Shown here: positions 7,007 through 62,118 of the stretch, in pieces
Position numbering within the stretch: position 1 is the first letter of the stretch
Layout: each line of letters opens with the position of its first letter
DNA from: a virus
Taxonomy: Duplodnaviria > Heunggongvirae > Uroviricota > Caudoviricetes
Virus record (IMG/VR): IMGVR_UViG_3300046542_000361
DNA length: 64,000 nucleotides
Reading direction: 5' to 3' (one strand)
The notes under the pieces: model-generated
What the model saw: the letters and a program-made list of their open reading frames with translations, nothing else
Told to the model about the DNA's origin: nothing
The model's database searches: none
Made by a program: the position numbers and the translations under genes

Positions 7007-7007
7007 T

Positions 7008-17321: not shown

Positions 17322-17401
17322 GTGAATCTCCGTCGTTGATCTGCTGATAGCGCCTCGAGCGGTGACGGTCAATCAGTTTTTACTGACCGTCACCGCGAAA
17401 T

Positions 17402-30124: not shown

Positions 30125-30146
30125 TCAATCAATATTTACTGAATAG
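30125..30146 (-). promoter_or_regulatory. conserved operon-upstream motif copy (CAATCAATATTTACTGAATAGC) about 35 nt upstream of the rIIA-like gene start
   Basis: One of about 20 related copies; see findings. Confidence 0.5.
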
Positions 30147-32911: not shown

Positions 32912-33901
32912 TCACGCTGCGTCACGGACGTATTCACCCGGCAGCGTCTTGCGATATTGGATCCAGCCAGGGCCGAGATTGCCGGCCAGGTGCGGGTTAT
33001 TCCACTGGTAGAACGACCGTCGCTGTGACGGGCCGCGACTTGCGTCCACACAGATCGCACCGGTGTCTGGCGTTGCCTGGTGCTCGGCCGGCGATGCGTG
33101 CAGCGGCGAGGAGCCTACGAGAAGCTCGTAGCGCTCCAGCTCTTTTTCGATCGAGGCATCGCCGTCGAAGGGCTTGTAGGAGATACGGGCACAGCGAGCG
33201 ACGGAGAGCTTCTTGAGGTAGTCAATCGTCGGGTGCGTCGTTTCCGGATAGGGCTCGAGATAATCCTCGACCATCGCGATATCATCCTGCGTGACATAAG
33301 GCAGGTGCCATTCACCGGGCCGCAGGCCGCGGATCGGCGTGTGCTCGATCGCCTCGCGGATCAGCTTGGCGAGATCCTGGAAGTGCGGCTCGGCAGCCTG
33401 GTGATCACGCAGATGCATGAAGTTTGCCCAGTCGGTCGAGGTGATCAGCGTGTCGATCCAGGAGAACGGCTCGATCAGACGATTGGCGATCTGCTTGTGA
33501 TAGCCGGCGTTGGAGAACGCTTCAGCGGCTTCAACCGCATGATCACGCTGGTCGAGCCATGCGCCTTCGCGCGAAAAGGTGAGGTCGGAATTGGGGCAAT
33601 CCTCATCCCCGCGAATAATCACCGGCTCGTCGCATTCCGCGCCGGCCTGCATGCCCTTCTGATTTGCACCCCAATGCCAGGGAACGAAGGGCGTCTCGCG
33701 GATTTCCTTCAGCATCGTCGCAACCGGCACGGCGCGCGAGGAGCGAGCATTCCGGCTGAAGACGCGATGCGTCATGATCTCGGCGTGGATGATGCGCGGG
33801 TAGCGCGCATGAATGGTGAAGATCGGCGGCACGTTATCGCCGGGACCAGGCATCGGCGCGGACGCTGCGATGACCTTCACGAACATTTGGTCTTTCGACA
33901 T
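32912..33901 (-). CDS. thyX: flavin-dependent thymidylate synthase
   Basis: ThyX signature RHR…S.R (IMTHRVFSRNARSSRA). 329 aa. RBS AAGGAAT. Confidence 0.85.
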   Translation of the reverse strand: MSKDQMFVKVIAASAPMPGPGDNVPPIFTIHARYPRIIHAEIMTHRVFSRNARSSRAVPVATMLKEIRETPFVPWHWGANQKGMQAGAECDEPVIIRGDEDCPNSDLTFSREGAWLDQRDHAVEAAEAFSNAGYHKQIANRLIEPFSWIDTLITSTDWANFMHLRDHQAAEPHFQDLAKLIREAIEHTPIRGLRPGEWHLPYVTQDDIAMVEDYLEPYPETTHPTIDYLKKLSVARCARISYKPFDGDASIEKELERYELLVGSSPLHASPAEHQATPDTGAICVDASRGPSQRRSFYQWNNPHLAGNLGPGWIQYRKTLPGEYVRDAA

Positions 33902-34924: not shown

Positions 34925-35146
34925 TTACGCCAGATATTTTCTCAGCGCGTCGAAACCACCGACATGCGTGTCGCCATCCCAAACCTGCGGGAAGGTGTCG
35001 GCGCCGGTGCGGTCTTTGAAGGCGAGCTGCTCCTCACGGGTGGCAAGGTGCTCTTCTTCGAACTCGACGCCACGGACGGCCAGGTGCGCTTTCGCACGCC
35101 TGCACCACTTGCAATCGGGGCGGCTGACGATTTTCCAGCCCATCAT
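34925..35146 (-). CDS. nrdH: glutaredoxin-like NrdH
   Basis: CKWC redox motif. 73 aa. ATGA-coupled to nrdJ. Confidence 0.8.
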   Translation of the reverse strand: MMGWKIVSRPDCKWCRRAKAHLAVRGVEFEEEHLATREEQLAFKDRTGADTFPQVWDGDTHVGGFDALRKYLA

Positions 35147-38216: not shown

Positions 38217-38720
38217 TCAGAACCTTCCGAAGTTGGGATTAGTCTCATAGGCTTTCGAAGCCTCCTTCTTTTCCGCGAGCGCGAGCAGGGCCACCTCGGC
38301 GTCTTCGTTGATCAGATTGATCTTCACGTTTGCGACGATCTCGCGGAAATCCTCGCATTCGGTGATATCGAGCGCCTCTGCCAGGGATGAGCCGACCAGG
38401 GGAAAGACGGCGTCCATCGAGGCTTCGTCGACGTCAGCCCAGTCGTATTCCTTGGTCTCGACCGGCACTGCCTTGAAGATCAGCTGACCCTTGGCGCCGA
38501 GGTAGAAATCGTTCAGAAAGTGCTCCGATGCCGGGAGCAGGGGCCTTTGACGATAGCCAGGGCGCGGGTCGCTCTGCTTCATCACCGGGCGTGTGTGCAT
38601 GCCTTCAACGGCGAAAGGCTCATCGATCGACTTCAGAACTTCCAGCAAACGCTTGCCGGCGCGCTCGGTCAGAGCCTTTTCCTCTTCGCCGATCGGCGTC
38701 TTGGTTGATTTGGGTGGCAT
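38217..38720 (-). CDS. hypothetical protein ending in …KAYETNPNFGRF
   Basis: RBS GAGGAA. The motif lies immediately upstream at 38733-38774. Carries the C-terminal GRF tail. Confidence 0.55.
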   Translation of the reverse strand: MPPKSTKTPIGEEEKALTERAGKRLLEVLKSIDEPFAVEGMHTRPVMKQSDPRPGYRQRPLLPASEHFLNDFYLGAKGQLIFKAVPVETKEYDWADVDEASMDAVFPLVGSSLAEALDITECEDFREIVANVKINLINEDAEVALLALAEKKEASKAYETNPNFGRF

Positions 38721-50737: not shown

Positions 50738-53700
50738 TCAGTCGAGGAGATCGATGACTGACGCAAAGACGTCCTCCATCAGTTCCTGCTTCTCGGGCGA
50801 GTAGTAGATTTCGCCAGGGTTGAAGCCGATCACCAGGTTAGCATCGAGCTCCTTGTGATAGACGATCTTGCCGGCCGCCTCAGAGGTCTTGCCCTTAAAG
50901 TCAGGCAGGAAGTGCCGGACGACGGTCGTGCCGAGCAGCACGATGATGGGCGGCCGCAGGACATCGATTTCGCGCTCGAGGTAGGGCAGATACAGCCGGA
51001 CCTCGTCCGACGAAATCTGCTTGCCCGCCTTCGGCCGTTTGAGCAGCGCCGTCCAATAGAAGGACTTGCGGTCGAGTTGATGGTTCATCAGCGCATCGAT
51101 GACCGGCGCCGAGGCTTTGCCGATCGACATCATGCCTTCCTGCTCTTCCGGATTGTTGGGCGCGTCCGTGATGATCATGAACTGCGCCTGTTTGCCGAAA
51201 TGCGGCTGCACCATGATGCCATCTTCCGACAGGTCCGCCTTGTAGTCGTCGATCACCTCGGCGATCGCTTCCTTGGTCGCCTTGTCGTTCTCCATCGATC
51301 GAGGCACCGGCACGGTTGCCGTCACCAGGCCGGGCAGGAGCTCGAGCTGATCCTTGATACGGCTCGGGTCGTTCGGGCCGACCTGTCCAGGTTCGATGCG
51401 TGAGAACGCGCCGACGAGATCGAGGTTTTCCTGATGCCGCTTGTTGCACCTGGTCTTGTTGACGCGCGCTAGGAAGTCGGCCTTGTTCTGGAAGGGACCG
51501 ACCGGCTTGCCTGTCTTCTCGTCGACCGCGGTGCGGGCGGCAAGGATCGCGCTCGTCGTCGTGCCCGAGATCCCCTTGATGCGCTGGAACGGCATGACCA
51601 TTCGGACATCGGTGACGATCTCGAAACGCTCGGTCGAAATGTTGATATCGGGCATGTTCACGTCGATGCCGAAGCGACCTGCATCGCGCAGCAGCGCCGG
51701 CAGCTTGTCCTCGTCCATCTGCGTTAGCGCGGCTGCGAAGAACTCGACCGGATAGTGCGTCTTCAGCCACATCGACTGCCAGGAGATCAGCGAATATTCG
51801 ACCGAGTGGCTCTTGTTGAAGCCGTAGCCGGCGAAGCCTTCGATCTTGTCGAAAAGCGTGCCTGCCCATTCCTCGGTGCAGCCGATCGTCTTGACCGCAC
51901 CGTCGCAGAACTTGCCGCGCTCCTTTTTCATTTCCTCGGGCAATTTCTTACCCATGATCTTACGCAGCTTGTCAGCGTCGGCGCCGGAATATCCGCAGAT
52001 CACCTGCGAGATCTTCATAACCTGCTCCTGGTAGACGATGACGCCGTATGTATCGCGCAGCACGTCTTCCATCAGCGGGTGGTCGTAATCGACGCTCTCG
52101 TTACCCTGCTTGCGTCGATAGTAGCTATCCATCATGCCTGATTCCATCGGGCCTGGTCGGTAGAGCGCGGTCGCCGCGGTGATATCGTCGAAGGTGATGG
52201 TGCCGTCGGCGCCGAGCTCGCGCAGCAGCTTGCGCATGCCAGCGCTTTCGAACTGGAAGACGCCTGTGGTCAAACCTGCGGCGAAGTTCTTCAGCACCGC
52301 CTGGTCGTCGAGCGGCACCTTCATCAGATTGATCTTCTTGGCGTGGCGCTCGAAGATATAGCGCAGCACAAGCGCGATCAGGTCGAGCGTGGACAGGCCG
52401 AGGATATCGAGCTTGACCAGGCCTTGATCCTCGACGATGCGCTTGTCCCAGCAGACGACGGCGCTGTCGCCTTTACGGCGCTCGATGACGGCGCGCTCCT
52501 CGAGATCGACACCGCCGACGACGATGCCGGACGCGTGCTGGCTCATATTGCGGATCGTGCCTTCGATGCGCTCCATGATATCCCAGTGGCCGGGATACTT
52601 GCCGGCGAACTCATCGATCTCGCCGACTTCCTCGCGGCACACCGGCAGTTTCACGTTGGCGCCGTGTTTCTTCGGCACCAGTTTGGAGATCGAATATTCC
52701 TTCTCCGGGATATCGAAGGCGCGGCCGACATCGCGGATCGAGGACGCAGCAGCAAGCGTGCCGAAGTTCGACACACCGGCGACGCGCTTCTCGCCGAATT
52801 TCTGGATGAGATAATCGACGACCTCGTGCCGGCGCGTCGACATGAAGTCAAGGTCGGCGTCGGGAAGGTCAAGACGCTCTGGATTGATGAAGCGCTCAAA
52901 GAGCAGGCCGAAGCGGATCGGGTCGCAGTCTGTGATGCCCATCAGATAAGCGACAAGCGAGCCACCAACCGAACCTCGACCAGGGCCGACGAGAATGCCG
53001 TTTGACTTGGCGAAGCGGACGACGTCCTGGGCCAGCAGGAAGTAACCCGCGAAGGACAGCTTCTTCAGCACCTCGAGCTCGTAGACCAGGCGCGGCTTAT
53101 AGAGGTCGACCAAGTCTTGCGGCTCCGGCTTGTGCCCGAAGCTCTCCTGGCTGAAACGGTTCTTCCAGCCGAGCTTGCATTCCTCGACCAGCTTGGCAAA
53201 CTCGTCCGGCGCCATCACCGGCAGCGAGACGGGTGCTTTCGACCAGGTGTATTCGACCGCATCGACCAGCCAGTCGGTGTTTGCCAGACCTTGCTTAAAG
53301 TGAGCGCCGGCGCCAGTGACACCGCGCAGCGCGACGTGCTTTGCAGCCTTGACCACTTCGGCGCCAAGGTCGCTCGCCTTCAGGACATGGAAGTCTCTGT
53401 TCCAGTTCGACTTGTGCCAGCCCTCGGAGATCTTGTTGCCGTTGGCGATCGCCGACATGATCTCGTGGGCGTCAGCCTGGTCGGCCTCGTAATAGGCGGG
53501 GCGCACGACCAGCGGGCGAGCCTTGAAGCGCGCGATCAGATCCAGCGAGCGCTTGTTGAGCGCGCCGAAATACGGCGTATCGACTGGGATCAGCGGTGCG
53601 AACACGTAGTCAGGATGCAGGTAGTCGACGAGCTTGGCGCAGATCGCTTCTGCGTCGGCGCGCATGATGACGCCGTGCGTGTCGCCGAGGTGAACAGCCA

Positions 53701-54151
53701 GGTGACCGGCGCCGAGCTTTTCGAACTCTTCCCAGAGATCGTCATAGCCGAGCTTGGCCGTGTAGTAGAAGCGGCCAGGCACCTTGTTGCCAGATGCGTC
53801 TTCGGTGTCGCCGGCATTGGCCTTGCTCAGCAACCGGTAGACCGTCTTCAGACCGGTCTCCGTCAGCACGTAAGCGGTGAGGAAGTGCTCGGGCGGCATG
53901 TGCTTCTTCTTCTGGCCCTTCGCCGGGCGCCAGGTCGGATCTTCCGACAGACGCAGGCGCACGCCGACGATCGGCTTGACGTCAGCCTTCTTGGCGCGAT
54001 TGGAGAAGTCGATCATGCCGGTGATGCTCATGGTGTCGGTGATCGCGACGGCCTTGGCACCCTGTTCCTTCGCGATATCGACCAGCTTCTCGGCGTTGAG
54101 AATGCTTTCGCCGAGGGAGAAGTCAGTTCGGGCTGCGAGAATGGCGTGCAT
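50738..54151 (-). CDS. dnaE: DnaE-type DNA polymerase III alpha subunit (PHP domain plus Pol III alpha core)
   Basis: 1137 aa. N-terminal PHP domain (MHAILAARTDFSLGESIL…). Pol III alpha is the usual replicase with this domain layout. Confidence 0.85.
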   Translation of the reverse strand: MHAILAARTDFSLGESILNAEKLVDIAKEQGAKAVAITDTMSITGMIDFSNRAKKADVKPIVGVRLRLSEDPTWRPAKGQKKKHMPPEHFLTAYVLTETGLKTVYRLLSKANAGDTEDASGNKVPGRFYYTAKLGYDDLWEEFEKLGAGHLAVHLGDTHGVIMRADAEAICAKLVDYLHPDYVFAPLIPVDTPYFGALNKRSLDLIARFKARPLVVRPAYYEADQADAHEIMSAIANGNKISEGWHKSNWNRDFHVLKASDLGAEVVKAAKHVALRGVTGAGAHFKQGLANTDWLVDAVEYTWSKAPVSLPVMAPDEFAKLVEECKLGWKNRFSQESFGHKPEPQDLVDLYKPRLVYELEVLKKLSFAGYFLLAQDVVRFAKSNGILVGPGRGSVGGSLVAYLMGITDCDPIRFGLLFERFINPERLDLPDADLDFMSTRRHEVVDYLIQKFGEKRVAGVSNFGTLAAASSIRDVGRAFDIPEKEYSISKLVPKKHGANVKLPVCREEVGEIDEFAGKYPGHWDIMERIEGTIRNMSQHASGIVVGGVDLEERAVIERRKGDSAVVCWDKRIVEDQGLVKLDILGLSTLDLIALVLRYIFERHAKKINLMKVPLDDQAVLKNFAAGLTTGVFQFESAGMRKLLRELGADGTITFDDITAATALYRPGPMESGMMDSYYRRKQGNESVDYDHPLMEDVLRDTYGVIVYQEQVMKISQVICGYSGADADKLRKIMGKKLPEEMKKERGKFCDGAVKTIGCTEEWAGTLFDKIEGFAGYGFNKSHSVEYSLISWQSMWLKTHYPVEFFAAALTQMDEDKLPALLRDAGRFGIDVNMPDINISTERFEIVTDVRMVMPFQRIKGISGTTTSAILAARTAVDEKTGKPVGPFQNKADFLARVNKTRCNKRHQENLDLVGAFSRIEPGQVGPNDPSRIKDQLELLPGLVTATVPVPRSMENDKATKEAIAEVIDDYKADLSEDGIMVQPHFGKQAQFMIITDAPNNPEEQEGMMSIGKASAPVIDALMNHQLDRKSFYWTALLKRPKAGKQISSDEVRLYLPYLEREIDVLRPPIIVLLGTTVVRHFLPDFKGKTSEAAGKIVYHKELDANLVIGFNPGEIYYSPEKQELMEDVFASVIDLLD

Positions 54152-54389: not shown

Positions 54390-54919
54390 CAACCTCTCCT
54401 CAGTGTGACCAGGCCGTCGATATTGTCGACAGCGCCAATGTGTGTGAGCGCCTGGATCGTCATGCGCGCGTGACTGTCTGCCGTGCCTTCGGTCCAGCCG
54501 AGCTTCGTCGTGAAAGCATAGGCGAGCGTGTGCCGATCGAGCGGCTGGCGCATCTTGAGCAGCAGGTGCCCGGCGATCTTCAGGAAGCTCGACGAACCGG
54601 CGAACGGGTTGACGCCTTTGGCGAAGTTTTCGGTGACGCGCAGATTGGAGCTGTCGAGCTTCTCGACCAGCGCCATGACCTTCTTCGGCACCGTCAGTTC
54701 GGCGGGATGCGCCGCTGGCTTTTCAGCGAGCGGGTTCTTGGCTTTCTTCGAGCCCTTGCCTGTCACGCCGACGCGCTCTCGAAGGATCTCGAGATTGGCG
54801 AAATGCAGCGGCCGGCAGGTCTCGGCGAACTTGCAGACCGCGCACACCGGCGCCGTCTCTTCAAATGCAAGTGCAGAGCCAAAGCAGCCAGGCGCAAATG
54901 ACGGGATAATGACGTTCAT
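54389..54919 (-). CDS. hypothetical protein with Cys-rich N-terminus
   Basis: RBS AAAGGA. ATGA-coupled to the sigma factor gene. Confidence 0.5.
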   Translation of the reverse strand: MNVIIPSFAPGCFGSALAFEETAPVCAVCKFAETCRPLHFANLEILRERVGVTGKGSKKAKNPLAEKPAAHPAELTVPKKVMALVEKLDSSNLRVTENFAKGVNPFAGSSSFLKIAGHLLLKMRQPLDRHTLAYAFTTKLGWTEGTADSHARMTIQALTHIGAVDNIDGLVTLRRG

Positions 54920-55548
54920 GCGGCAGTCCTTTGAACCTTCTCGGAGAGCGTGCGCAGCTCGGCGAGGATCTTCGTGCGTTCCGGGCGGTCGGCGTCCATC
55001 AGGCGAAACACGAAGGACGTCGTTATGTGGCTGATCAGAATGTTCTGCGCGCCGATCGACTTGGCGTATTCGGCGCGCGCCTTCAGCAAGCGCATCTGCT
55101 CCAAGAGTTCGGGCGGCTGCTCATAGAGGAGCTTCAAAAACAGCGCGCTGCGTTCGCTCAGCCGCCGCAGCGCCCATGCGATGTGTGTCGCTTCATCCAC
55201 CTGCGCATCCGGCGAGGGCTCGCTCGAAGGCATCAGGTCGACCAGCTTGTCGTTTTCGTCGCTATTGCCGACGGGCGCGTCGAGCCGCTGGGCGCGCTCC
55301 TCGCCGATCCGCTTGAACATCTTGCGATTGATCTCGAGCTTGGAGCGGCGAATACCCTCGATCAGATACGCGTTGAAGGGCACGCCGAGCATCGGATCGA
55401 ACGTGTCGCGTGCGCGGCACCAGACGAGCCAAAGCTCTTGCTCGACGTCATCATGGCTAAGCGATGTTGCGCCGTTGCCATGAAGCTTCCTTGCGATCGA
55501 CCAGGACAGACGCCGGATCAGCTCGACGCTCTCCTTATGGTCAATCAT
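54916..55548 (-). CDS. sigma-70 family (ECF-like) RNA polymerase sigma factor
   Basis: Region-2-like DVEQELWLVWCRARDTFDP…FNAYLIEGIRRS and a C-terminal region-4-like helix. 210 aa. Confidence 0.6.
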   Translation of the reverse strand: MIDHKESVELIRRLSWSIARKLHGNGATSLSHDDVEQELWLVWCRARDTFDPMLGVPFNAYLIEGIRRSKLEINRKMFKRIGEERAQRLDAPVGNSDENDKLVDLMPSSEPSPDAQVDEATHIAWALRRLSERSALFLKLLYEQPPELLEQMRLLKARAEYAKSIGAQNILISHITTSFVFRLMDADRPERTKILAELRTLSEKVQRTAA

Positions 55549-56807
55549 GCGAAATACCTTTGCAGAACCTGCTCGACAGTCACCTGGTCGACGCGGGAGC
55601 AGCGGTTGGCGAATGCGAGCTTGAAGCCGAGGATGGGGTTGTTACCGAAGACGATCGTCAGCGAGGACGCGGTGATCAGCTCACGCGGCGAGATCGTCAT
55701 CGACATTTCGCCCTTGGTGAAGCTTTCGCGGATCGAGTTCGCGACCTTGACGAACTTGTCGGCGTCAGGCTTGCCGAGACCGGCCTTCGAGCGCAGCACC
55801 AGGCTTTCCTGCTTGGCGTCCATGTATTTCACCTCTTCGGTGATATGGAAGCGCGAGTAGGACGCTGCGTTCTGGATCATCGTGCCTTGGTAGAGGCCTG
55901 TCTCATCGCCGACGCCGTTGGTGTTGCCGGTCGCAACGAAGCGGAAATCGGGATGCGGATGAATGACGCGCTGGTCGATCGGCGCATCCTTGATGACGAG
56001 CGGCTTGCCCTCGAGCACCGGCTGATAGAGCGCGATCACCGACGGCATGGCGAAGTCGTATTCGTCAGCGCAGTAGACCATGCCGTATTTCATCGCCATT
56101 GCCAGCGGGCCATACTGAAACTCGGTGATGGTCTGCGGCTTCTTGACGACGTGGATCTTGCCGTCGGGGCCGAGCTCCTGGGCGTCGACGAGCACGGTCT
56201 TGACGACATACTGGCCGAGGATATGCGCCTCTTCGGTGTTGCCGGTGTGCTGGACGCGCAAGAAAGGCCGCCCGGTGCGTGCGGCACACTGCTCGAGCAC
56301 CGTCGTCTTGCCGGTGCCGTGCATGCCCCAGAGGTAGACGTTCATGGCAAGTTCGAAGCCGAGGCAGACTTTCTTGACCAGGTCGATGTTGAAGACATAG
56401 TCGCCGTCGATCGACTGCACATAGGCGTCAGCCTCGGGATGATGCTCGGTCAGGCAGCGCAGCATGATCGGATTGTTGGTCGACGACAGCGCCGTCGAGG
56501 CATCGAGCCCGAAGATGTCGGAGAGCGAGCGCTCGGCGAAAGCGAACGCCTGGCCCGGCTGAAACGACGCAGCGGCAGCCTTGCGGTCGGCAGCCTCCTT
56601 GGCCTTCATCGCCGCGCGCCGGCCTCGGTCGGACATCAGCGGGTGGCCCGGATACTCTTCCTTGTAGCGCTCGATCGTCCAGTCCGGATAGTTCTGCTTC
56701 AGGTAGACGCGAATGGAGTCGCAAAGCCCGCCGTCGATCGCGCAAACGATCTTGGCGTTCGCGTCGTCAGGTGCGGGCGCAAGGGTGGTAGCAGCTGCTG
56801 CGGTCAT
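55545..56807 (-). CDS. MoxR / CobS-like AAA+ ATPase
   Basis: Walker A GMHGTGKTT, Walker B YCADEYD, AAA_5-type layout. Start MTAAAATT with RBS GGAGA. Two motif copies lie upstream at 56846-56914. Confidence 0.75.
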   Translation of the reverse strand: MTAAAATTLAPAPDDANAKIVCAIDGGLCDSIRVYLKQNYPDWTIERYKEEYPGHPLMSDRGRRAAMKAKEAADRKAAAASFQPGQAFAFAERSLSDIFGLDASTALSSTNNPIMLRCLTEHHPEADAYVQSIDGDYVFNIDLVKKVCLGFELAMNVYLWGMHGTGKTTVLEQCAARTGRPFLRVQHTGNTEEAHILGQYVVKTVLVDAQELGPDGKIHVVKKPQTITEFQYGPLAMAMKYGMVYCADEYDFAMPSVIALYQPVLEGKPLVIKDAPIDQRVIHPHPDFRFVATGNTNGVGDETGLYQGTMIQNAASYSRFHITEEVKYMDAKQESLVLRSKAGLGKPDADKFVKVANSIRESFTKGEMSMTISPRELITASSLTIVFGNNPILGFKLAFANRCSRVDQVTVEQVLQRYFA

Positions 56808-56845
56808 TAAAATCTCCGTTCGATGTTGCGATCTGTCGTCGCGTT

Positions 56846-56914
56846 CAATCAATATTTACTTACTAACAAGCGTAGCGATGGGATGCAATCAGTTTTTACT
56901 GACCGACTGCATTA
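56846..56914 (-). promoter_or_regulatory. two tandem motif copies upstream of the CobS-like gene; the first is a ~40-nt element near-identical to 34858-34897
   Basis: CAATCAATATTTACTTACTAACAAGCGTAGCGATGGGA then CAATCAGTTTTTACTGACCGACTGCATTA. Confidence 0.5.
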
Positions 56915-56919
56915 CCCGA

Positions 56920-59442
56920 TCATTTCATGAGGATCTTCTTCAGTTCGCCCATCACGGCGCGCGGCAGGTCGTCGACCGACTGCAGGACAATGTGGTTGTC
57001 GTAGAAGCGCGCGACGGCGTCGGACTCGATGCCGATACCGACGAGATCGTAGCCCATGTTGGTCAGACGCTCGACCATGTGCTTCAGGTGCGCGTCGTCA
57101 TTTCTGGCGCCGGCAGGAAAGCCGTCGGACAGGACGATGATGACCTTGCGCTTCTCCTTGCGCCGCGCCAGGCGCATTGCTGCGTATTCGAGGGACTCGC
57201 CGTCGATATTGCCGCCCATATAAGGCTGATGCTTGCGCTGGTAAGCGAAGCGCTTCTTGACGTCGGCGTTAAGCCGCTCGTTGAAATCTTTGAAGATCGG
57301 CATGTAGATCGGCACGACGCGCGAGAAGGCAACGTTGGATTTGTTCGTCTCGGTCTGAAGGTCGTTGTTGAACTGCCTGATCCTATCTTCCGTCATGACG
57401 CTGCCTTGGCCCCACATCTGCGCGGTCGTAAAGCCCATGCATTCGGAGGGGATATTGCAGCGCTCGAGCACCGAGGCGAGCGCGTAAGAGGCCGACAGCG
57501 CCGTTGCCATTGGTCGCCCCTGCATCGAGCCGGAGCAGTCCGACAGCAGCGACACAGCCGTGTCTTTCGCGCGGATCTCTTCACGGCGCGAGAACACGCG
57601 CGAATCGCCGGCCGTCAGCCGATGCAGACCGGCGCTGTTCAAGCGGCCAGAGCGTTGACCGGCGACATTGAAGACGCGCGCCTGGGCGGCCATCATGCGC
57701 TCGATATCCTTCTGCATCACGCCAGTCAGCGCGCGGGTCTGCTCCTCGAGCTCGACGATATAGCGGCTTTTGAAATCTTCCGGCACCTCGAGCGGCTTGA
57801 TCACGTCGTATTCACGGGTGAAGATCGAATAATCCGAGGCCCTGCAGGCCGAGATCGCTTCCTTGACGATGATCTTGACCAGCGCCGACGAGATATCCTT
57901 TTCGTCGAGCGCGTCATCATCCATTGCGGCAAAGGGGTTCTGGTTCGGATCGTAGCCGATGGAAGCGACGTCGATCGCCGGCTCCTCATCTTCACTGGCC
58001 GAGCCGTCGTTTGCGTCTTCATCGTCGCCGGCGTCCTCGACAGCGACATTGCTCAGAGGCTCGCCAGACTCCTCATCGCCGTCTTCACCTTCTTCGGATT
58101 CACCATCGGGATCAGAGCCTCCAGCGTCGCTTTCGCTCTCGTCACCCTCAGCGTCCACATCTTCGTCGGCATCGTCAGCGGGCTCCCCGGAGCTGTTCTG
58201 CTCGGCGTCCTTGCCTTCATCAACCTCAGAAGCATCCGATGCTTCGTCGCCGTCAGCAGCAGAGCCGTCACCCCCTTCCTCGCTTCCGCCATCAGCATCA
58301 TCGGGCGCGCTGCCGGAACCATCTTGATCATCGGCATCGTCAGCGTCGTCCTCTTCGGCCGAGCCGGCGCCTTTGCTTTCCTCGGGCTCATTGCCAGCGT
58401 CGGCATCGTCCTTGTCGCCGGAACCGTCACCTGCGTCTTCGTCGGCCGTTTGATCACCATCCTGATCGTCGTCGCCGTCGTCTGCGCTTCCAGCGCCAGG
58501 TTCCTTGTCGCTTTCCTCATCGTCGGCTTTTTCTTCGCCTTCGCCGGAACCTTCGTTCTCACCGTCGCCGGCATCGTCTTCCTTCTCCTCTTCGTCGCTT
58601 TCGCCTTCGCCGCCCGACGCTTTGTCGTTGTCTTCGGTGTGCTCGCGCTCACCGTCGCCTTCACCGTCGCCGGTCTGCTGTTCGTCGGAATGATCCTTGT
58701 CGTCTTCGCCTTCGGACGGCTCCTGGTCGTCGGAGCCTTCGCCCTGGTCCTGATCGTCTTGCTCTTCAGGCTCGGGCGGCTGCGGCGGGGCGGGCGGCGG
58801 TGGCGGGTAGAGAATGGCTTCGACCTCGACCGCAATGTCGTAGGTCTGCTCGGTCGTCTGGAGCAACGGCATCTTGTCTTGCGACGCCTTTGAGAAGCGC
58901 TGCATGAATGGCTTGACCAGCTCGTGCTCCCAGTAATTGTTGTCGTCCATGAATTCCTGGAATTCGACGTGGCCGGCAAGCGCGCGCATCATGACGACGA
59001 TCAGATAGCCGAACTCTTCTTCCTTCGAGTGCGCCTTTGCGATCGCGGCCGCGGTGACGTTGCGCAGGAAGTATTCACGCAGCTTGGAAATGTTGCGCTT
59101 CGAGCCGGGGAACTCATTGCTCATCAGCCGCTCGATCATCGTATCTTCGATGATATTGTGCAGATTGTGCAGGCGCTTCGACTTGTCGCGCGCCTTGAAC
59201 AGGAAGTCGGTGAAGAGGACATGCGCGACTTCATGGTCGATGAAGCCCTGGATCGCGAAGACAAACTCCGGCTCGGCATTGTCGGGCAGGAGAGGAATGT
59301 TGACGCGCCAGGGCAGACCGGTGACGGGGTGCGGTTGAACATAGGCTTGCGTGCCCATTTGCGTCACGGTCAGGCCTTTGCCAGCAAGCATCGGCACGAT
59401 CTTCTTGATCGCTTCGCGCAGGATCACGATGTCTTTGTTCAT
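56920..59442 (-). CDS. CobT-like vWA-domain protein with a ~250-aa poly-acidic low-complexity linker and an N-terminal HExxH (HEVAH) motif
   Basis: C-terminal vWA MIDAS LLSDCSGSMQG. Extreme D/E/G/S-rich repeat region. 840 aa. Confidence 0.7.
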   Translation of the reverse strand: MNKDIVILREAIKKIVPMLAGKGLTVTQMGTQAYVQPHPVTGLPWRVNIPLLPDNAEPEFVFAIQGFIDHEVAHVLFTDFLFKARDKSKRLHNLHNIIEDTMIERLMSNEFPGSKRNISKLREYFLRNVTAAAIAKAHSKEEEFGYLIVVMMRALAGHVEFQEFMDDNNYWEHELVKPFMQRFSKASQDKMPLLQTTEQTYDIAVEVEAILYPPPPPAPPQPPEPEEQDDQDQGEGSDDQEPSEGEDDKDHSDEQQTGDGEGDGEREHTEDNDKASGGEGESDEEEKEDDAGDGENEGSGEGEEKADDEESDKEPGAGSADDGDDDQDGDQTADEDAGDGSGDKDDADAGNEPEESKGAGSAEEDDADDADDQDGSGSAPDDADGGSEEGGDGSAADGDEASDASEVDEGKDAEQNSSGEPADDADEDVDAEGDESESDAGGSDPDGESEEGEDGDEESGEPLSNVAVEDAGDDEDANDGSASEDEEPAIDVASIGYDPNQNPFAAMDDDALDEKDISSALVKIIVKEAISACRASDYSIFTREYDVIKPLEVPEDFKSRYIVELEEQTRALTGVMQKDIERMMAAQARVFNVAGQRSGRLNSAGLHRLTAGDSRVFSRREEIRAKDTAVSLLSDCSGSMQGRPMATALSASYALASVLERCNIPSECMGFTTAQMWGQGSVMTEDRIRQFNNDLQTETNKSNVAFSRVVPIYMPIFKDFNERLNADVKKRFAYQRKHQPYMGGNIDGESLEYAAMRLARRKEKRKVIIVLSDGFPAGARNDDAHLKHMVERLTNMGYDLVGIGIESDAVARFYDNHIVLQSVDDLPRAVMGELKKILMK

Positions 59443-59484
59443 TTCGCACTCCGTTAAATCAATTTTGATTGATTATTTATCGCA

Positions 59485-59715
59485 TCAAAAATCTTGGATC
59501 ACAAACGGGAAGAGCAGGAGCCCTTGTCCGACTGCAGGGATGATGATGTGGATATTGCCGTGTTCGGGGTGCGTGCCGGTGAAGACGGTCACGCCCTCCT
59601 TGTCCGTTCGCACGCAATTCACCAATGACGCGCCCTCTGCCCAGGCAAGGTCGAAAGGAATCTCCTTGACGGCGCCGAGGTGGGTCTTGGTGGTTGCCTG
59701 CTGTTGCTTCTGCAT
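59485..59715 (-). CDS. hypothetical small protein
   Basis: Motif copies lie at 59455-59483 and 59745-59764. Confidence 0.45.
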   Translation of the reverse strand: MQKQQQATTKTHLGAVKEIPFDLAWAEGASLVNCVRTDKEGVTVFTGTHPEHGNIHIIIPAVGQGLLLFPFVIQDF

Positions 59716-59781
59716 GATGCGTCCTTTGTCATGTCAACACCGATCAGTCAATATTTACTGATGGAGCTAGAGAAAGAAAAA

Positions 59782-59807
59782 GCGATCCGGGGCCTATTCC
59801 GGATCGC
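59782..59807 (-). terminator. rho-independent terminator GCGATCCGG-N8-CCGGATCGC followed by TTTTTCTTTCT on the minus strand
   Basis: Immediately after the regulator gene stop. Confidence 0.65.
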
Positions 59808-61011: not shown

Positions 61012-62118
61012 ATGGGAGCGCAGTCATCCGGCTGGCGTGGATTAAGTCCGACACTTTCGGTCGGCCAAGATCTCGACAGCGCCGAAAAGCAAGACCTCTT
61101 CGACACGGCCAGAATGGCAGCTCGAGTCCTTGGGTTGCCGCCGACGGCGCGGTTCGTCCTCGACCAGCTCTGCGGCGTTTATAACGGCGAACCGATCGAA
61201 GGTCGAATCCTTGTCTGGCCGTCAAACGAGTTCATCGGCGAGCGCACTGGCATTCCGGAGCGGTCCATCAGGTTCGCGCTCGCCCGTCTGATCGAGGAGG
61301 GCGTGATCATCTCCAAGGATTCGCCGAACGGCAAGCGGTTTGCGCAGCGCTCGCCATCCGGCCAGATCATCCGTGCCTTCGGTTTCGACCTCTCCCCTCT
61401 CCTTGCGCGCCGGCCGGAGTTTGTCGCCAGGCTCGCGGCGCTCAAGGAATTGGAGCGTGAGCGGAGCGTTGCCTTCGACGAGCTGGTCATTCACCGGCGT
61501 TCGGCCCAGGAAGCTCTCAGGACGCTTGCAGAGGTTTACCCGAGCGTCGACATAGCTGATCTGACGGCGCGCGCCCTGGAGCTCATGCGCGTCACACCGC
61601 GCAGGTCCGGTGCGGGATCAGCCGACCCTTTCCGCGGGCAGTGGCAAGCACTCAGAGAAGAGGCAGAATCCAGATATTATACCGCCTCTGCCGGCAATAA
61701 CTGCCGTCACAAAGACAGCAACAAATATGCCCCTGACCAGTCTTGTGACAACGGCTCTGAAGATGTGCAGGAGGCGCCGGCGCAGCGGACGGATCTGCGC
61801 GACCTGAAGATGGCTTGCCTTGATGCGATGGAATTCATGGGTGAGATCCGGCACGACCTCGAGCTTGTCGCGGCTGCCGGGCGAATGCGGGGCTCGTTCG
61901 GCGTGTCAGTGTCGGCCTGGGAGGAGGCCAGGCGCGAAATCGGCCCGGTGCCGGCTGCCGCGACCCTGGTGTGGGTCATCCAGATGCAGGCGCGGCCAGC
62001 TGCCGGCGCCGAGCAGATCAAGAATTTCGGTGGTTACTTCCGGGCGATGTGCCGGTTGGTCCGCGACGGCCGCGTCAACCTCGATGAAGAGATCCAAAAG
62101 CTCAGGCGACGACAATAA
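61012..62118 (+). CDS. replication initiator-like protein with winged HTH (RepC / RP-C-like, putative)
   Basis: wHTH SNEFIGERTGIPERSIRFALARLIEEGVI. 368 aa. RBS AAGGGAAA. One of only three plus-strand genes. Confidence 0.45.
   Translation: MGAQSSGWRGLSPTLSVGQDLDSAEKQDLFDTARMAARVLGLPPTARFVLDQLCGVYNGEPIEGRILVWPSNEFIGERTGIPERSIRFALARLIEEGVIISKDSPNGKRFAQRSPSGQIIRAFGFDLSPLLARRPEFVARLAALKELERERSVAFDELVIHRRSAQEALRTLAEVYPSVDIADLTARALELMRVTPRRSGAGSADPFRGQWQALREEAESRYYTASAGNNCRHKDSNKYAPDQSCDNGSEDVQEAPAQRTDLRDLKMACLDAMEFMGEIRHDLELVAAAGRMRGSFGVSVSAWEEARREIGPVPAAATLVWVIQMQARPAAGAEQIKNFGGYFRAMCRLVRDGRVNLDEEIQKLRRRQ

What the first reader, a model, noticed from the sequence alone, without database searches (positions are those of the whole stretch)
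55545..59442. MoxR / CobS-like AAA+ ATPase paired with a vWA protein carrying a 250-aa poly-acidic linker and an HExxH motif
Classic AAA+ (GMHGTGKTT, YCADEYD) plus vWA-MIDAS (DCSGSM) partner genes, sharing a double copy of the conserved upstream motif. The vWA protein holds an extreme D/E/G/S-rich low-complexity region of about 250 aa (57950-58800) and an N-terminal HEVAH that could be a metalloprotease-type zinc site.

CobS/CobT-like pairs recur in large phages with no known function. They may act as a chaperone or remodeller, perhaps on the GRF-tailed proteins.
Basis: partly seen in the sequence, partly recalled or inferred. Interest (0 to 1): 0.55.

Follow-up and report, generated by a model that had tools for sequence, protein, structure and literature searches.

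The report
Phage CobS/CobT-like ATPase–adaptor pair
This is the "CobS/CobT" gene pair already annotated in Rhizobium phage RHEph10 and in SSU5-type phage-plasmids: an AAA+ motor and a vWA adaptor built like the motor and adaptor of cobalt chelatase, except that the adaptor keeps a protease-type zinc site the cellular enzyme has lost, so it probably remodels (and perhaps cuts) a protein rather than making vitamin B12.

Summary
There are two co-oriented minus-strand genes.

- **CobS-like AAA+ ATPase:** 55545-56807, with the true start probably the ATG at 56807.
- **CobT-like protein:** 840 aa, 56920-59442. It has an N-domain with HEVAH, a roughly 300-aa polyacidic disordered linker (net charge -119), a "shaft", and a vWA domain with a full MIDAS motif.

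The window is a relative (about 89% nt identity) of phage-plasmid RHEph10, where both genes are already annotated as CobS and CobT.

**What I add**
- The N-domain is homologous to the cellular CobT N-domain, which has an M48-like fold.
- 0 of 120 cellular CobT proteins keep HExxH. All 156 sampled relatives of the phage-type protein do, as do the enterobacterial plasmids I checked.
- Three phage lineages (Pseudomonas, Acinetobacter, Stenotrophomonas) have lost the two histidines.
- The order cobT-cobS-(small ORFs)-dnaE is conserved across Rhizobium, Salmonella, Yersinia pMT, E. coli, Klebsiella, Acinetobacter, Pseudomonas and Stenotrophomonas elements. More distant phages place the pair beside PolA.
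- Both proteins score far below the NCBI CobS and CobT equivalog cut-offs, and no cobN is present.

**Best reading:** a CobST-type motor-adaptor that remodels, and possibly cleaves, a protein client early in infection.

**Rival:** a true B12 chelatase helper. This window encodes a B12-dependent RNR, which favours it.

It is a known kind of gene pair whose function is untested.

The parts
59782..59807 (-). Intrinsic-terminator-like hairpin (9-bp stem, 7 GC, T-run) after the upstream HTH gene. It marks the upstream boundary of the transcription unit that contains cobT and cobS.
   Evidence: sequence
59744..59759 (-). Exact copy of the window-wide palindromic motif AGTAAATATTGACTGA, 29 nt upstream of the small ORF that precedes cobT.
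59485..59715 (-). 76-aa ORF, the first gene of the unit. It is conserved in RHEph10 (gp042) and Pararhizobium p5. The small ORFs at the same position in enteric, Acinetobacter and Pseudomonas elements are only 16-22% identical, so I do not count it as a conserved component.
59457..59472 (.). Palindromic motif copy (3 mismatches), 15 nt upstream of the cobT ATG.
56920..59442 (-). CobT-like adaptor gene, 840 aa: M48-like N-domain, polyacidic disordered linker, then shaft and vWA.
   Evidence: Pfam CobT_C 7.6e-34, and CobT N-domain 29.9 bits when scanned alone; PHROG 1576, 5e-230; PDB CobT 9uka_G, 6e-21; full-length AlphaFold model
58810..59442 (-). N-domain, aa 1-211: helix, three-stranded sheet, then a helical bundle. 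This is the same element order reported for the cellular CobT_N (M48C-like).
59221..59235 (-). HEVAH (H70, E71, H74): candidate zinc ligands and catalytic glutamate on helix 58-77.
   Evidence: invariant in 132-156 relatives; absent in 0/120 cellular CobT; His lost in three phage lineages
59131..59148 (-). E99, D100 and E104 on the next helix (89-110): candidates for the third zinc ligand (gluzincin pattern). E99 and E104 are also kept in cellular CobT (EQARVE).
57898..58809 (-). Proline-rich start followed by a D/E/G/A/S linker, aa 212-515, net charge -119, predicted disordered. It is the fastest-evolving part: 64% identity to RHEph10, against 97% for the N-domain and 90% for the C-domain.
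   Evidence: no long tandem repeat
57565..57678 (-). Segment aligned to the CobT 'shaft' (Q373-R413 of the solved protein), which inserts into the CobS ring. It is modelled as a beta-hairpin after the long helix 560-587 and is well conserved in the family (G595, G599, L606, F617).
   Evidence: alignment; preprint
57526..57540 (-). MIDAS D635-x-S637-x-S639 at the end of vWA strand beta-1. The remaining MIDAS residues are T672/T673 (57424-57429) and D773 (57124-57126).
   Evidence: D635, S637, S639 and D773 invariant; T672/T673 at >=90%
56885..56900 (-). Second, degenerate motif copy (3 mismatches) in the cobT-cobS spacer.
56845..56860 (-). Exact motif copy, 38 nt upstream of the cobS ATG.
55545..56807 (-). 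CobS-like AAA+ ATPase, 420 aa from the ATG at 56807. Residues 123-419 align to solved CobS 33-314, with Walker A (56301-56327), Walker B (56055-56075), ATGNT and SPRELI conserved. It has a lineage-specific N-terminal extension of about 100 aa. It ends where CobS residue 314 of 328 aligns.
   Evidence: TIGR01650 7e-47, 160 bits, cut-off 558; Pfam AAA_5 and CbbQ_C; PHROG 249, 2e-83; PDB 9ujv_A, 5e-42, with alignment; A3
54916..55548 (-). Context: a phage sigma-70-family factor whose start overlaps the cobS stop by 4 nt, so the two are translationally coupled. This gene is specific to the Rhizobium phage group and is absent at this position in SSU5, nickie and the Acinetobacter plasmid.
50738..54151 (-). 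Context: DNA polymerase III alpha (DnaE), the conserved downstream neighbour of cobT-cobS in every SSU5-supergroup element I examined.

Best explanation
The two genes encode a phage version of the CobS-CobT motor-adaptor machine.

Inferred by homology to the solved cobalt-chelatase CobST complex:
- A hexameric CobS-like AAA+ ring grips the 'shaft' that precedes the vWA domain of the CobT-like protein.
- ATP binding and hydrolysis move the adaptor.
- The adaptor holds a client protein between its MIDAS face and the beta-sheet/cleft of its M48-like N-domain. The two are joined by a roughly 300-residue polyanionic disordered tether.

Unlike cellular CobT, the phage N-domain keeps an intact gluzincin signature: HExxH plus conserved Glu/Asp on the next helix. 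In this phage the adaptor is therefore probably also a metallopeptidase that cuts what it holds. This is inferred and not shown.

The pair opens an early transcription unit that runs on into a phage sigma factor and DnaE. I infer that it acts on a protein client at the onset of lytic or plasmid replication, either host or phage, and that it does not act as a cobalt chelatase subunit. The client is unknown.
For: Identity as a CobST-type pair
- CobS hits: 7e-47; 5e-42, residues 123-419 against 33-314, with Walker A/B, sensor motifs and the SPR sensor-2 aligned.
- CobT_C hits: and the alignment that covers the shaft.
- The N-domain passes Pfam CobT on its own.
- hhalign against the cellular CobT_N profile gives E 7e-6 local and prob 91% global.
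- The AlphaFold element order (helix, 3 strands, helices; linker disordered; beta0, long helix, hairpin, vWA) matches the preprint's description.

Zincin site
- H70, E71 and H74 are invariant, and D69, N96, E99, D100 and E104 are at least 90% conserved, in 132-136 representatives.
- 156 of 156 sampled relatives have HExxH.
- It is intact in SSU5, Y. pestis pMT, E. coli and Klebsiella plasmids, CRP-810 and a Bacteroides phage.
- 0 of 120 cellular CobT have it; the aligned segment reads GAADaxAlRL.

Not a chelatase equivalog
- Scores are 160 against a cut-off of 558 for CobS and 100 against 759 for CobT.
- There is no cobN in the window or in RHEph10.
- The same pair sits on 1036 plasmid records, mostly Klebsiella, Escherichia, Acinetobacter, Enterobacter, Yersinia and Salmonella.
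- E. coli needs about 30 heterologous genes for de novo B12, and Salmonella uses CbiK rather than CobNST (bioRxiv 10.1101/394338).

Replication and early context
- The order cobT-cobS-(0-3 small ORFs)-dnaE holds in 10 elements from 8 genera.
- Distant HExxH-vWA + AAA_5 pairs lie beside primase-helicase/PolA/5'-3' exonuclease, or between helicases and PolA.
- A terminator lies before the unit and none lies within it.
- cobS and cobT co-occur in the same 34-35 phage records.
Against: - No biochemical or genetic data exist for any phage CobST.
- The histidines are replaced, with Glu kept, in nickie-like Pseudomonas phages, Acinetobacter phage-plasmids and a Stenotrophomonas phage. These keep the same cobT-cobS-dnaE arrangement. 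Whatever function is shared by the supergroup therefore does not need the zinc site.
- Placement in a replication or nucleotide-metabolism module also fits a B12 role, and this particular phage encodes a B12-dependent RNR.
- The phage CobS lacks the C-terminal helix that docks CobT_N in the solved complex (against the preprint). The assembly may therefore differ from the template I rely on.
- The sample of 156 is biased towards relatives that score well against an HExxH-containing profile.
Confidence: 0.5

Rival explanations
1. The pair is a genuine auxiliary metabolic gene pair. Phage CobS and CobT replace or supplement the host motor and adaptor, dock onto host CobN, and raise cobalt insertion into hydrogenobyrinic acid a,c-diamide. 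That increases adenosylcobalamin for B12-dependent nucleotide synthesis. This is the model of Liu et al. 2021.
For: - The closest characterised family for both proteins is cobaltochelatase CobS/CobT.
- All structural modules of CobT are present, including the shaft and MIDAS.
- This window encodes an RTPR-like class II (adenosylcobalamin-dependent) ribonucleotide reductase at 35143-37563: PF21995 at 8.8e-10 and TIGR02505 at 4e-69.
- Rhizobium hosts use the aerobic CobNST pathway (my own knowledge).
- The hypothesis is published in PMC8651126.
Against: - Scores are 3.5-fold and 7.6-fold below the equivalog cut-offs.
- The zincin site is invariant in close relatives yet absent from 0/120 true CobT.
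- RHEph10 and SSU5 carry the same pair together with class I RNRs.
- The Rhizobium phages that share this class II RNR (I4, P11VFA, L338C) are not among the CobS or CobT hits.
- More than 1000 plasmids of enterobacteria and Acinetobacter carry the pair. These hosts do not use CobN-dependent cobalt insertion (and my own knowledge).
- The host already has CobS and CobT.
- The pair is linked to dnaE, or to PolA in distant phages, rather than to any cob gene.
Confidence: 0.2
2. The N-domain is a pseudo-peptidase here as well. Under this view HExxH is a structural or regulatory metal site, or a relic, and the machine only remodels or assembles a client without cutting it. This would be exactly how CobT, NorD, CbbO and ViaA adaptors work.
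For: - Cellular CobT uses the same domain purely for binding: the beta-sheet and the beta3-alpha2 loop hold CobN, and alpha1/alpha2 dock on CobS.
- Three phage lineages lost both histidines but kept the operon.
- E99 and E104 are conserved even where the histidines are gone.
Against: Strict invariance of H70, E71 and H74 across 132-156 representatives clustered at 50% identity or below, and across Rhizobium, enteric, Roseobacter and Bacteroides elements, is hard to explain without selection on the metal site.
Confidence: 0.15
3. The pair is a virion-morphogenesis chaperone and protease. The MoxR-vWA pair would assemble or proteolytically process structural proteins. Iyer et al. 2021 proposed this for the MPTase-vWA + MoxR pair of jumbo phages, by analogy with the MoxR-vWA system needed for tail development of Acidianus two-tailed virus.
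For: Literature proposal for the same domain architecture (PMC7824862).
Against: - In every element I examined the pair sits in the early or replication module, next to ligase, primase, helicase and DNA polymerase, and far from or opposite to the head and tail genes.
- It is retained on Y. pestis pMT, next to caf1 and dnaE. That element is maintained as a plasmid.
Confidence: 0.07
4. The pair is a host-takeover or anti-defence device. The polyanionic tether would act as a DNA mimic that recruits host DNA-binding proteins, such as nucleoid, restriction or replisome factors, to the MIDAS/peptidase head. There they would be pulled apart or cleaved.
For: - The tether has extreme negative charge (-119) and its length lies at the top of the family range of 0-321 aa.
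- It occupies an early position in the operon.
Against: - Acidic linkers of 50-144 aa are present in all cellular CobT proteins, where they are plain disordered tethers.
- Linker sequence evolves fast, and four family members have no acidic run at all.
- There are no PADLOC or anti-defence family hits.
- This is entirely inferential.
Confidence: 0.08

Closest known systems
Aerobic cobaltochelatase motor and adaptor CobS/CobT (CobSTN; PDB 9ujv/9uka series; Zhou et al., bioRxiv 10.64898/2026.07.21.739949)
   Same: - The AAA+ core matches, with Walker A/B and sensor motifs.
- The adaptor has the same three-part layout: N-domain with helix, 3-stranded sheet and helical bundle; disordered acidic linker; then beta0, long helix, shaft and vWA with MIDAS.
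   Different: - Scores lie far below the equivalog cut-offs.
- The N-domain keeps HExxH, which 0 of 120 cellular CobT have.
- The linker is about 300 aa against about 90-100 aa.
- The phage CobS has an N-terminal extension of about 100 aa and lacks the last 14 or so residues. According to the preprint, those residues form the hydrophobic patch that docks CobT_N.
- No CobN gene accompanies the pair, and many hosts lack one.
Phage cobS-cobT pair (RHEph10 gp044/gp043; SSU5_050/049; Y. pestis pMT 'porphyrin biosynthesis protein'; cyanophage and haloarchaeal-virus cobST; PHROG 249 and 1576)
   Same: This is a direct member. Identity to RHEph10 is 91.5% for CobS, 97% for the CobT N-domain and 90% for the CobT C-domain. 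Gene order is identical. PHROG E-values are 2e-83 and 5e-230.
   Different: - The linker is only 64% identical to RHEph10.
- This phage has swapped the class I RNR of RHEph10 for a class II enzyme.
- Published annotations treat the pair as a B12 auxiliary metabolic gene, and none tests that.
MoxR AAA+ plus metallopeptidase-vWA pair of group 2.2 jumbo phages (Iyer et al. 2021, PMC7824862)
   Same: The two-gene architecture matches: a MoxR-clade ATPase and a vWA co-chaperone with an N-terminal metallopeptidase domain.
   Different: - Those authors place it in virion assembly, whereas the context here is early/replication.
- I did not compare sequences directly, because their accessions were not retrievable with these tools.
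MoxR-vWA motor-adaptor chaperones: CbbQ-CbbO, NorQ-NorD, RavA-ViaA, CoxD-CoxE
   Same: Each has an AAA_5 / CbbQ_C ATPase and a MIDAS-bearing adaptor that captures a client and transmits ATP-driven remodelling.
   Different: Those adaptors have no peptidase-like N-domain with an intact HExxH. Their clients are metalloenzymes encoded next to them, whereas here the neighbours are replication genes.
M48/M56 gluzincin peptidases and soluble minigluzincins (Ste24/ZMPSTE24, BepA, HtpX-like, BlaR1, proabylysin/projannalysin)
   Same: An HExxH helix follows a small beta-sheet, with a Glu-bearing helix next. They are the best peptidase-class structural neighbours. Cellular CobT_N is reported as M48C-like.
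Mg-chelatase BchD/ChlD
   Same: A proline-rich then acidic linker sits between an N-terminal module and a C-terminal integrin-I/vWA domain that works with an AAA+ ring (my own knowledge; cited).
   Different: BchD has a degenerate AAA module at its N-terminus, not a zincin-like domain. According to the preprint, BchI belongs to a different AAA+ clade.

Membership tests
Cobaltochelatase subunit CobS (NCBIfam TIGR01650, equivalog) | Whole-protein score above the curated equivalog cut-off (558.55 bits) | tested here: not met
   160.2 bits, E 7e-47
Cobaltochelatase subunit CobS (NCBIfam TIGR01650, equivalog) | AAA+ core of the CobS type: Walker A GxxGxGKS/T, Walker B DExD, sensor-1 ATxNT, sensor-2 SPR, and alignment across the large and small subdomains | tested here: met
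   Residues 123-419 align to solved CobS 33-314. GMHGTGKTT, ADEYD, ATGNT and SPRELI are all aligned.
Cobaltochelatase subunit CobS (NCBIfam TIGR01650, equivalog) | C-terminal helix alpha10 (about residues 317-326) that docks CobT_N | tested here: not met
   The phage protein ends at the position aligned with residue 314 of 328. The interface residues come from the preprint.
Cobaltochelatase subunit CobS (NCBIfam TIGR01650, equivalog) | Works with CobN to insert Co2+ into hydrogenobyrinic acid a,c-diamide | not testable with these tools
   There is no cobN in the window or in RHEph10. This needs biochemistry or complementation.
Cobaltochelatase subunit CobT (NCBIfam TIGR01651, equivalog) | Whole-protein score above the cut-off (759.05 bits) | tested here: not met
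   100.2 bits
Cobaltochelatase subunit CobT (NCBIfam TIGR01651, equivalog) | Architecture: CobT_N, disordered acidic linker, then shaft and vWA | tested here: met
   Pfam CobT (29.9 bits against a gathering cut-off of 26.1 for the N-domain alone) and CobT_C; hhalign; AlphaFold; shaft region aligned
Cobaltochelatase subunit CobT (NCBIfam TIGR01651, equivalog) | MIDAS motif on the vWA domain | tested here: met
   D635, S637, S639 and D773 are invariant, and T672/T673 are at least 90% conserved
Cobaltochelatase subunit CobT (NCBIfam TIGR01651, equivalog) | N-domain is a non-catalytic M48-like module (no HExxH) | tested here: not met
   0 of 120 cellular CobT have HExxH, whereas the window protein has HEVAH at the aligned position
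Phage CobS/CobT pair (PHROG 249 + PHROG 1576) | Profile matches to both PHROGs, adjacent co-oriented genes, and co-occurrence in the same genomes | tested here: met
   2.3e-83 and 5.1e-230; 34 and 35 phage records with the same genus breakdown; 88-90% nt identity to annotated RHEph10 and Y2_11 loci
Zincin / gluzincin metallopeptidase (M48-like) | HExxH on a helix that follows a beta-sheet, conserved among homologs | tested here: met
   HEVAH lies on helix 58-77, after strands 25-48. It is invariant in 132-156 relatives. It is lost in three lineages.
Zincin / gluzincin metallopeptidase (M48-like) | Third metal ligand (Glu) on the following helix | tested here: inconclusive
   E99, D100 and E104 on helix 89-110 are at least 90% conserved.
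Zincin / gluzincin metallopeptidase (M48-like) | Significant structural or profile match to a curated peptidase family | tested here: inconclusive
Zincin / gluzincin metallopeptidase (M48-like) | Zinc binding and peptide-bond hydrolysis | not testable with these tools
   Needs purified protein.
MoxR-vWA chaperone systems | MoxR-clade (AAA_5 / CbbQ_C) ATPase encoded next to a MIDAS-bearing vWA protein | tested here: met
Known anti-phage defence systems (PADLOC-DB 2.0) | Match to any defence-system protein model | tested here: not met
   No hits at E <= 0.01 for CobS-like, CobT-like or the flanking small ORFs

The most novel reading that the evidence does not exclude
The phage CobST pair is an ATP-driven 'grab, pull and cut' machine and not a vitamin gene. 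The AAA+ ring tugs the adaptor's shaft. The MIDAS face and an active M48-type zincin hold and cleave a host or phage DNA-replication-associated protein. The roughly 300-residue polyanionic tether helps recruit DNA-binding clients. This lets the element's own DnaE- or PolA-based replisome take over. A corollary follows: the cobalt-chelatase adaptor CobT would be a catalytically dead descendant of such a protease-adaptor, its former substrate cleft now gripping CobN.
Probability: 0.12. Interest if true: 0.8.

Novelty: new member of a known kind. Interest (0 to 1): 0.38.

Why it matters
cobS is a near-universal single-copy gene of marine myocyanophages. The cobS-cobT pair is also found in tailed viruses of bacteria and archaea, and in more than 1000 sequenced plasmids, including Yersinia pestis pMT and Klebsiella and E. 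coli phage-plasmids that carry resistance genes. It is routinely counted as a vitamin-B12 auxiliary metabolic gene in viral ecology, yet nobody has tested that.

Three results here turn the annotation into a testable alternative:
- The phage-type adaptor keeps a protease-type metal site that every sampled cellular CobT has lost.
- The pair travels with the element's DNA polymerase.
- It thrives in hosts without CobN-dependent cobalt insertion.

If the alternative is right, B12-related inferences drawn from viral cobS/cobT counts would need revising. A new phage-encoded remodeller or protease with an unknown client would also be on the table. For this particular window the finding itself is ordinary, because near-identical genes are already deposited and named.

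Tried and rejected
- **Foldseek of the N-domain model against PDB.** Nothing significant; the best hits were abylysin (E 1.2) and an M1 aminopeptidase. The solved CobT_N did not appear. The afdb50 library was not available.
- **Narrow 11-sequence N-domain profile against PDB sequences.** No CobT hit even at E <= 10.
- **First hhalign against a poor 22-sequence CobT-related alignment.** Only 17% probability. With 60 true CobT N-domains it rose to 84-91%.
- **First homolog search with the N-domain.** The word-indexed search found only 10 proteins. The exhaustive HMMER scan was needed.
- **Small ORF upstream of cobT as a third conserved component.** Rejected, at 16-22% identity across lineages.
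- **Upstream palindromic motif as an RNA hairpin.** Folding energies were not different from shuffles, with z between -0.4 and -1.4. It is more likely a DNA-level site.
Tails are present in the window and in RHEph10 but absent from SSU5. The four tailed proteins have no significant Pfam match (one sub-threshold DUF1955 hit, E 0.006) and no PHROG match.
- **Defence-system membership.** No PADLOC hits.
- **cobN hidden in the window.** The only CobN-sized ORF (3389-7273) has just a weak beta-helix hit.
- **Tandem-repeat origin of the linker.** Only short GGC/GCG runs at its proline-rich start.
- **Class II RNR as support for the B12 model across phages.** No overlap between the CobS/CobT-bearing and RNR-II-bearing Rhizobium phage records.

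Full report
**1. What is in the sequence**

The downstream ORF is an AAA+ ATPase.
- Walker A is GMHGTGKTT and Walker B is YCADEYD.
- The mechanical ORF starts at a TTG at 56852. The ATG at 56807 is a better start, for three reasons. It has a GGAG 8 nt upstream. An exact copy of a window-wide 16-nt motif lies at 56845-56860, inside the TTG extension. The RHEph10 homolog is 406 aa.

The upstream ORF (56920-59442, 840 aa) has these features.
- HEVAH is at residues 70-74.
- The low-complexity region spans aa 212-515 (nt 57898-58809). It opens with PPPPPAPPQPPEP and is then dominated by D, E, G, A and S, with net charge -119.
- DCSGSM is at residues 635-640.

cobT has a single 3-mismatch copy 15 nt before its ATG, and another exact copy precedes the small ORF upstream.

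**2. Where the window comes from**

- The 6.5 kb around the finding is 88-90% identical to Rhizobium phages RHph_Y2_11 and RHEph10. These are 115-117 kb siphoviruses that carry a RepC plasmid replication gene.
- It is 81% identical to a 115.6-kb circular plasmid of Pararhizobium qamdonense.
- RepC is also present in the window at 61012-62118.
- In RHEph10 the two genes are already annotated as "putative cobalamin biosynthesis protein (CobT)" and "porphyrin biosynthesis (CobS)".

The finding is therefore a new allele of deposited, named genes.

**3. Family identity**

The ATPase:
- Pfam AAA_5 and CbbQ_C.
- NCBIfam CobS at 7e-47 but only 160 bits against an equivalog cut-off of 558.
- PHROG 249 at 2e-83.
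- Solved CobS (PDB 9ujv) at 5e-42. Residues 123-419 align to 33-314, and all catalytic motifs align.

The vWA protein:
- Pfam CobT_C at 7.6e-34.
- NCBIfam CobT at 100 bits against a cut-off of 759.
- PHROG 1576 at 5e-230.
- Solved CobT (9uka_G) at 6e-21 over residues 536-835.
- Scanned on its own, the N-terminal 214 residues pass the Pfam CobT gathering threshold, at 29.9 against 26.1 bits.

**4. The adaptor, module by module**

A 2026 preprint on the cobalt chelatase (bioRxiv 10.64898/2026.07.21.739949) describes cellular CobT as follows.
- CobT_N has one helix, a three-stranded sheet and eight helices, "resembling the peptidase M48C domain".
- A disordered linker of about 90 residues follows.
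- CobT_C has a strand, two long helices, a "shaft" that inserts into the nucleotide-bound CobS ring, and a vWA domain with MIDAS.
- CobN is held between CobT_N (its sheet and the beta3-alpha2 loop) and the MIDAS face.

My AlphaFold models reproduce this layout for the phage protein.
- The N-domain alone has pLDDT 95 and pTM 0.90, with helix 3-20, strands 25-48, then helices from 58.
- In the full-length model, residues about 221-500 have pLDDT 32-58 and no secondary structure.
- The C-terminal part shows helix 517-535, strand 547-550, long helix 560-587, a hairpin at 589-623, and then the vWA sheet starting at 628-635, which ends in D635.

Further points on the modules:
- The hairpin is the segment that HMMER aligns to the shaft (Q373-R413) of the solved protein. 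It is conserved in the family.
- MIDAS is complete. D635, S637, S639 and D773 are invariant, and T672/T673 are at least 90% conserved.
- Profile-profile comparison of 107 phage-type N-domains with 60 cellular CobT N-domains gives E 7e-6 and probability 84% locally over 130 columns. In global mode it gives 91% over 210 columns.

**5. The HExxH question**

Conservation in relatives:
- An exhaustive HMMER scan with the N-domain profile found 2377 cluster representatives at E <= 1e-3, and 390 at E <= 1e-30.
- All 156 sequences I could retrieve have HExxH within the first 200 residues.
- All 128 full-length ones have DxSxS.
- In alignments of 132-136 representatives, H70, E71, H74 and G113 are invariant. 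D69, N96, E99, D100, E104 and N117 are at least 90% conserved.

Contrast with cellular CobT:
- None of 120 cellular CobT proteins has HExxH.
- The aligned segment reads RLRGAADaxAlRLkhHD, against AIQGFxDHEVAHVLFTD in the phage type.
- The next helix keeps its two glutamates: AmEQARVEa against NIxEDTxIER.

Fold evidence:
- Foldseek against PDB was not significant.
- Against BFVD, the domain recurs at the N-terminus of vWA proteins from sipho-, podo- and myoviruses, Gordonia and Brevibacterium phages, and haloarchaeal tailed viruses.

The motif is not universal in phages.
- The two histidines are replaced in Pseudomonas phage nickie (GFLDSEISKV), Acinetobacter plasmid pA1296_1 (GFLDQEVAKY) and Stenotrophomonas phage BUCTxx99 (GFLDREVSTL). 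The glutamate is kept in all three.
- The motif is intact in SSU5, Y. pestis pMT, E. coli pRHB14-C22_3, Klebsiella pKPHS1, Roseobacter phage CRP-810 and a Bacteroides phage.

The site is therefore under strong selection in most lineages, including this one. But the function shared by the whole supergroup cannot depend on it. My sample of 156 is also biased towards sequences that score well against an HExxH-bearing profile.

**6. The acidic linker**

- An acidic run is a family trait. The median is 101 aa (range 50-144) in 116 cellular CobT proteins and 190 aa (range 0-321) in 128 phage-type proteins.
- The window's run is near the top of that range.
- It is the least conserved part. Identity to RHEph10 is 64% in the linker, against 97% for the N-domain and 90% for the C-domain.
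- It is not a long tandem repeat.

This argues for selection on composition and length rather than on sequence. I see no evidence that it is more than a long charged tether. A DNA-mimic role is speculation.

**7. Genomic context**

Within the window:
- A strong terminator-like hairpin (59807-59782) follows the upstream HTH gene.
- The unit then runs motif, 76-aa ORF, motif, cobT, two motifs, cobS.
- Next comes a sigma-70-family gene whose start overlaps the cobS stop, then two small ORFs, then dnaE (50738-54151).
- No terminator-like site on the coding strand lies between the ORF-76 start and the end of the scanned stretch (54000, just inside dnaE).

Across other elements:
- The order cobT-cobS-(0-3 small ORFs)-dnaE is the same in RHEph10, Pararhizobium p5, Salmonella phage SSU5, Pseudomonas phage nickie, Acinetobacter pA1296_1, Y. 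pestis pMT, an E. coli plasmid, Klebsiella pKPHS1 and Stenotrophomonas phage BUCTxx99.
- A DNA ligase, primase and helicase lie upstream. In the enteric plasmids a divergent regulator and an integrase lie just before the unit.
- The C-terminal domain finds 1036 plasmid records: Klebsiella 347, Escherichia 228, Acinetobacter 147, Enterobacter 92, Yersinia 63 and Salmonella 49.
- In two unrelated metagenomic phages, HExxH-vWA + AAA_5 pairs lie next to primase-helicase/PolA/5'-3' exonuclease, or between helicases and PolA.
- In the phage collection, CobS-like and CobT-like genes occur in the same 34-35 records.

**8. Chelatase or not**

For a real B12 role:
- The homology itself points that way.
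- The hypothesis is published (PMC8651126).
- Something I noticed only when annotating the rest of the window also supports it. This phage carries an RTPR-like, adenosylcobalamin-dependent class II RNR at 35143-37563.

Against it:
- Both scores lie far below the equivalog cut-offs.
- There is no cobN in the window or in RHEph10.
- RHEph10 and SSU5 have the same pair with class I RNRs.
- The Rhizobium phages that share this class II RNR lack the pair.
- The pair is abundant in enterobacteria and Acinetobacter. E. coli has no de novo pathway, and Salmonella inserts cobalt with CbiK rather than CobNST. For Acinetobacter and Yersinia this rests on my own knowledge.
- Rhizobium already has CobS and CobT.
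- The conserved zincin site has no counterpart in any sampled cellular CobT.

I rate the chelatase reading at about 0.2.

**9. Most likely mechanism**

Shown:
- Homology and module-by-module correspondence to the CobST motor-adaptor.
- A conserved zincin signature.
- A conserved operon with a DNA polymerase.

Inferred:
- A CobS-like hexamer engages the shaft of one or two adaptors.
- ATP-driven motion is transmitted to a client held between MIDAS and the N-domain cleft. In cellular CobT that same surface grips CobN.
- Where HExxH is intact, as here, the client is probably cleaved.
- The client is unknown. Position and synteny point to the onset of replication of the element.

Two differences from the template warn against copying the CobST geometry too literally.
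- The phage CobS lacks the C-terminal helix that docks CobT_N in the solved complex.
- It carries an N-terminal extension of about 100 residues. This has a C-x2-C-x4-H-x5-H motif in the SSU5, nickie and Acinetobacter proteins, but the motif is degenerate here.

**10. Comparison with prior knowledge, and verdict**

- The gene pair is known and annotated.
- Its metallopeptidase-vWA + MoxR architecture in phages was described by Iyer et al. 2021, who proposed a virion-assembly role. The context I find does not favour that role.
- The M48-like fold of cellular CobT_N is in the 2026 preprint, which does not mention HExxH, zinc or phages.

What appears to be new in this analysis:
- The explicit contrast between an intact zincin site in the phage-type adaptor and none in 120 cellular CobT proteins.
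- The lineage-specific histidine losses.
- The breadth of the cobT-cobS-polymerase linkage.

The finding is a new member of a known kind. It is of moderate interest because it bears on a long-standing open question, namely what viral cobS/cobT do, and because it suggests clean experiments. No PADLOC defence model matches.

Noticed in passing
window 35143-37563 (-): An 806-aa RTPR-like class II (adenosylcobalamin-dependent) ribonucleotide reductase: PF21995 insertion domain, and TIGR02505 at 233 bits against a cut-off of 340. RHEph10 has a class I NrdA/NrdB pair plus glutaredoxin at the equivalent place. The nearest homologs (70-72% aa) are in the unrelated Rhizobium phages I4, P11VFA and L338C, so this looks like a module swap. 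A ThyX-like gene (32912-33901) likewise replaces the ThyA of RHEph10.
   Followed up: partly
window 12574-13812, 14787-15347, 17073-17372, 38217-38720 (all -): Four otherwise unrelated proteins with no significant family match end in a shared C-terminal tail, Y-x-x-[NH]-P-[NL]-[FY]-G-R-F-COOH. RHEph10 has 6-7 such tails, including a WGR-domain protein ending in NPRFGMF. SSU5 has none. This looks like a lineage-specific docking or degradation tag, and its partner is unknown.
   Followed up: partly
window, 21 loci, e.g. 30125-30140, 56845-56860, 59744-59759: The near-palindromic 16-mer AGTAAATATTGAYTGA (consensus roughly AGTCAATATTGACTGA) gives 30 matches against 0.16 expected. Twenty of the 21 loci lie 10-78 nt upstream of a minus-strand ATG, some as close as 10-15 nt. 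Predicted RNA hairpins are no more stable than shuffles, so it is probably a DNA site for a dimeric regulator or a phage-specific promoter element. The phage sigma factor is encoded right after cobS.
   Followed up: partly
window 56500-56807 (-); L003 9414-9600, L004 9158-9300, L006 9096-9250: The N-terminal extension of the SSU5-supergroup CobS-like proteins carries a C-x2-C-x4-H-x5-H zinc-finger-like motif in SSU5, nickie and the Acinetobacter plasmid. It is degenerate in the Rhizobium phages (IVCAIDGGLCDSIRVYLK here). More distant CobS-like proteins (318-345 aa) lack the extension altogether.
   Followed up: partly
window 61012-62118 (+) and the whole window: RepC plasmid replication initiator (RP-C, 2.7e-38) lies divergent from the cobT unit. 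Together with the 81%-identical circular plasmid p5 of Pararhizobium qamdonense, this marks the element as a phage-plasmid of the RHEph10 group.
   Followed up: partly
window 54916-55548 (-): A phage sigma-70-family gene (region 2; PHROG 351) has a start codon that overlaps the cobS stop (ATGA). It is present at this position only in the Rhizobium/Pararhizobium elements, and not in SSU5, nickie or the Acinetobacter plasmid.
   Followed up: no
proteins P0002 and P0005 (Mesorhizobium and metagenome fragments): Some close homologs of the N-domain carry an IPT/TIG domain immediately after it, where this protein has the start of its acidic linker. The linker position therefore tolerates insertion of a folded domain.
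   Followed up: no
L014 (Y. pestis Pestoides F plasmid MT): On the plague plasmid pMT, the intact HExxH-CobT / AAA / dnaE unit lies about 2.8 kb from the F1 capsule gene caf1, behind an integrase and a divergent regulator.
   Followed up: no
window 50738-54151 (-); L006 11807-16049: The phage DnaE here is 1137 aa. According to the RHEph10 annotation it carries a uracil-DNA-glycosylase-like C-terminal region. In the Acinetobacter plasmid, DnaE is shorter (785 aa) and a separate UDG-family gene follows, after a NUMOD4 homing-endonuclease-like ORF. This suggests a split or fused polymerase-UDG arrangement.
   Followed up: no
window 56713-58893 (+): A 726-aa antisense ORF runs across the acidic-linker coding region. 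It is a by-product of GAN/GGN-rich codons on the coding strand and is not a gene.
   Followed up: no
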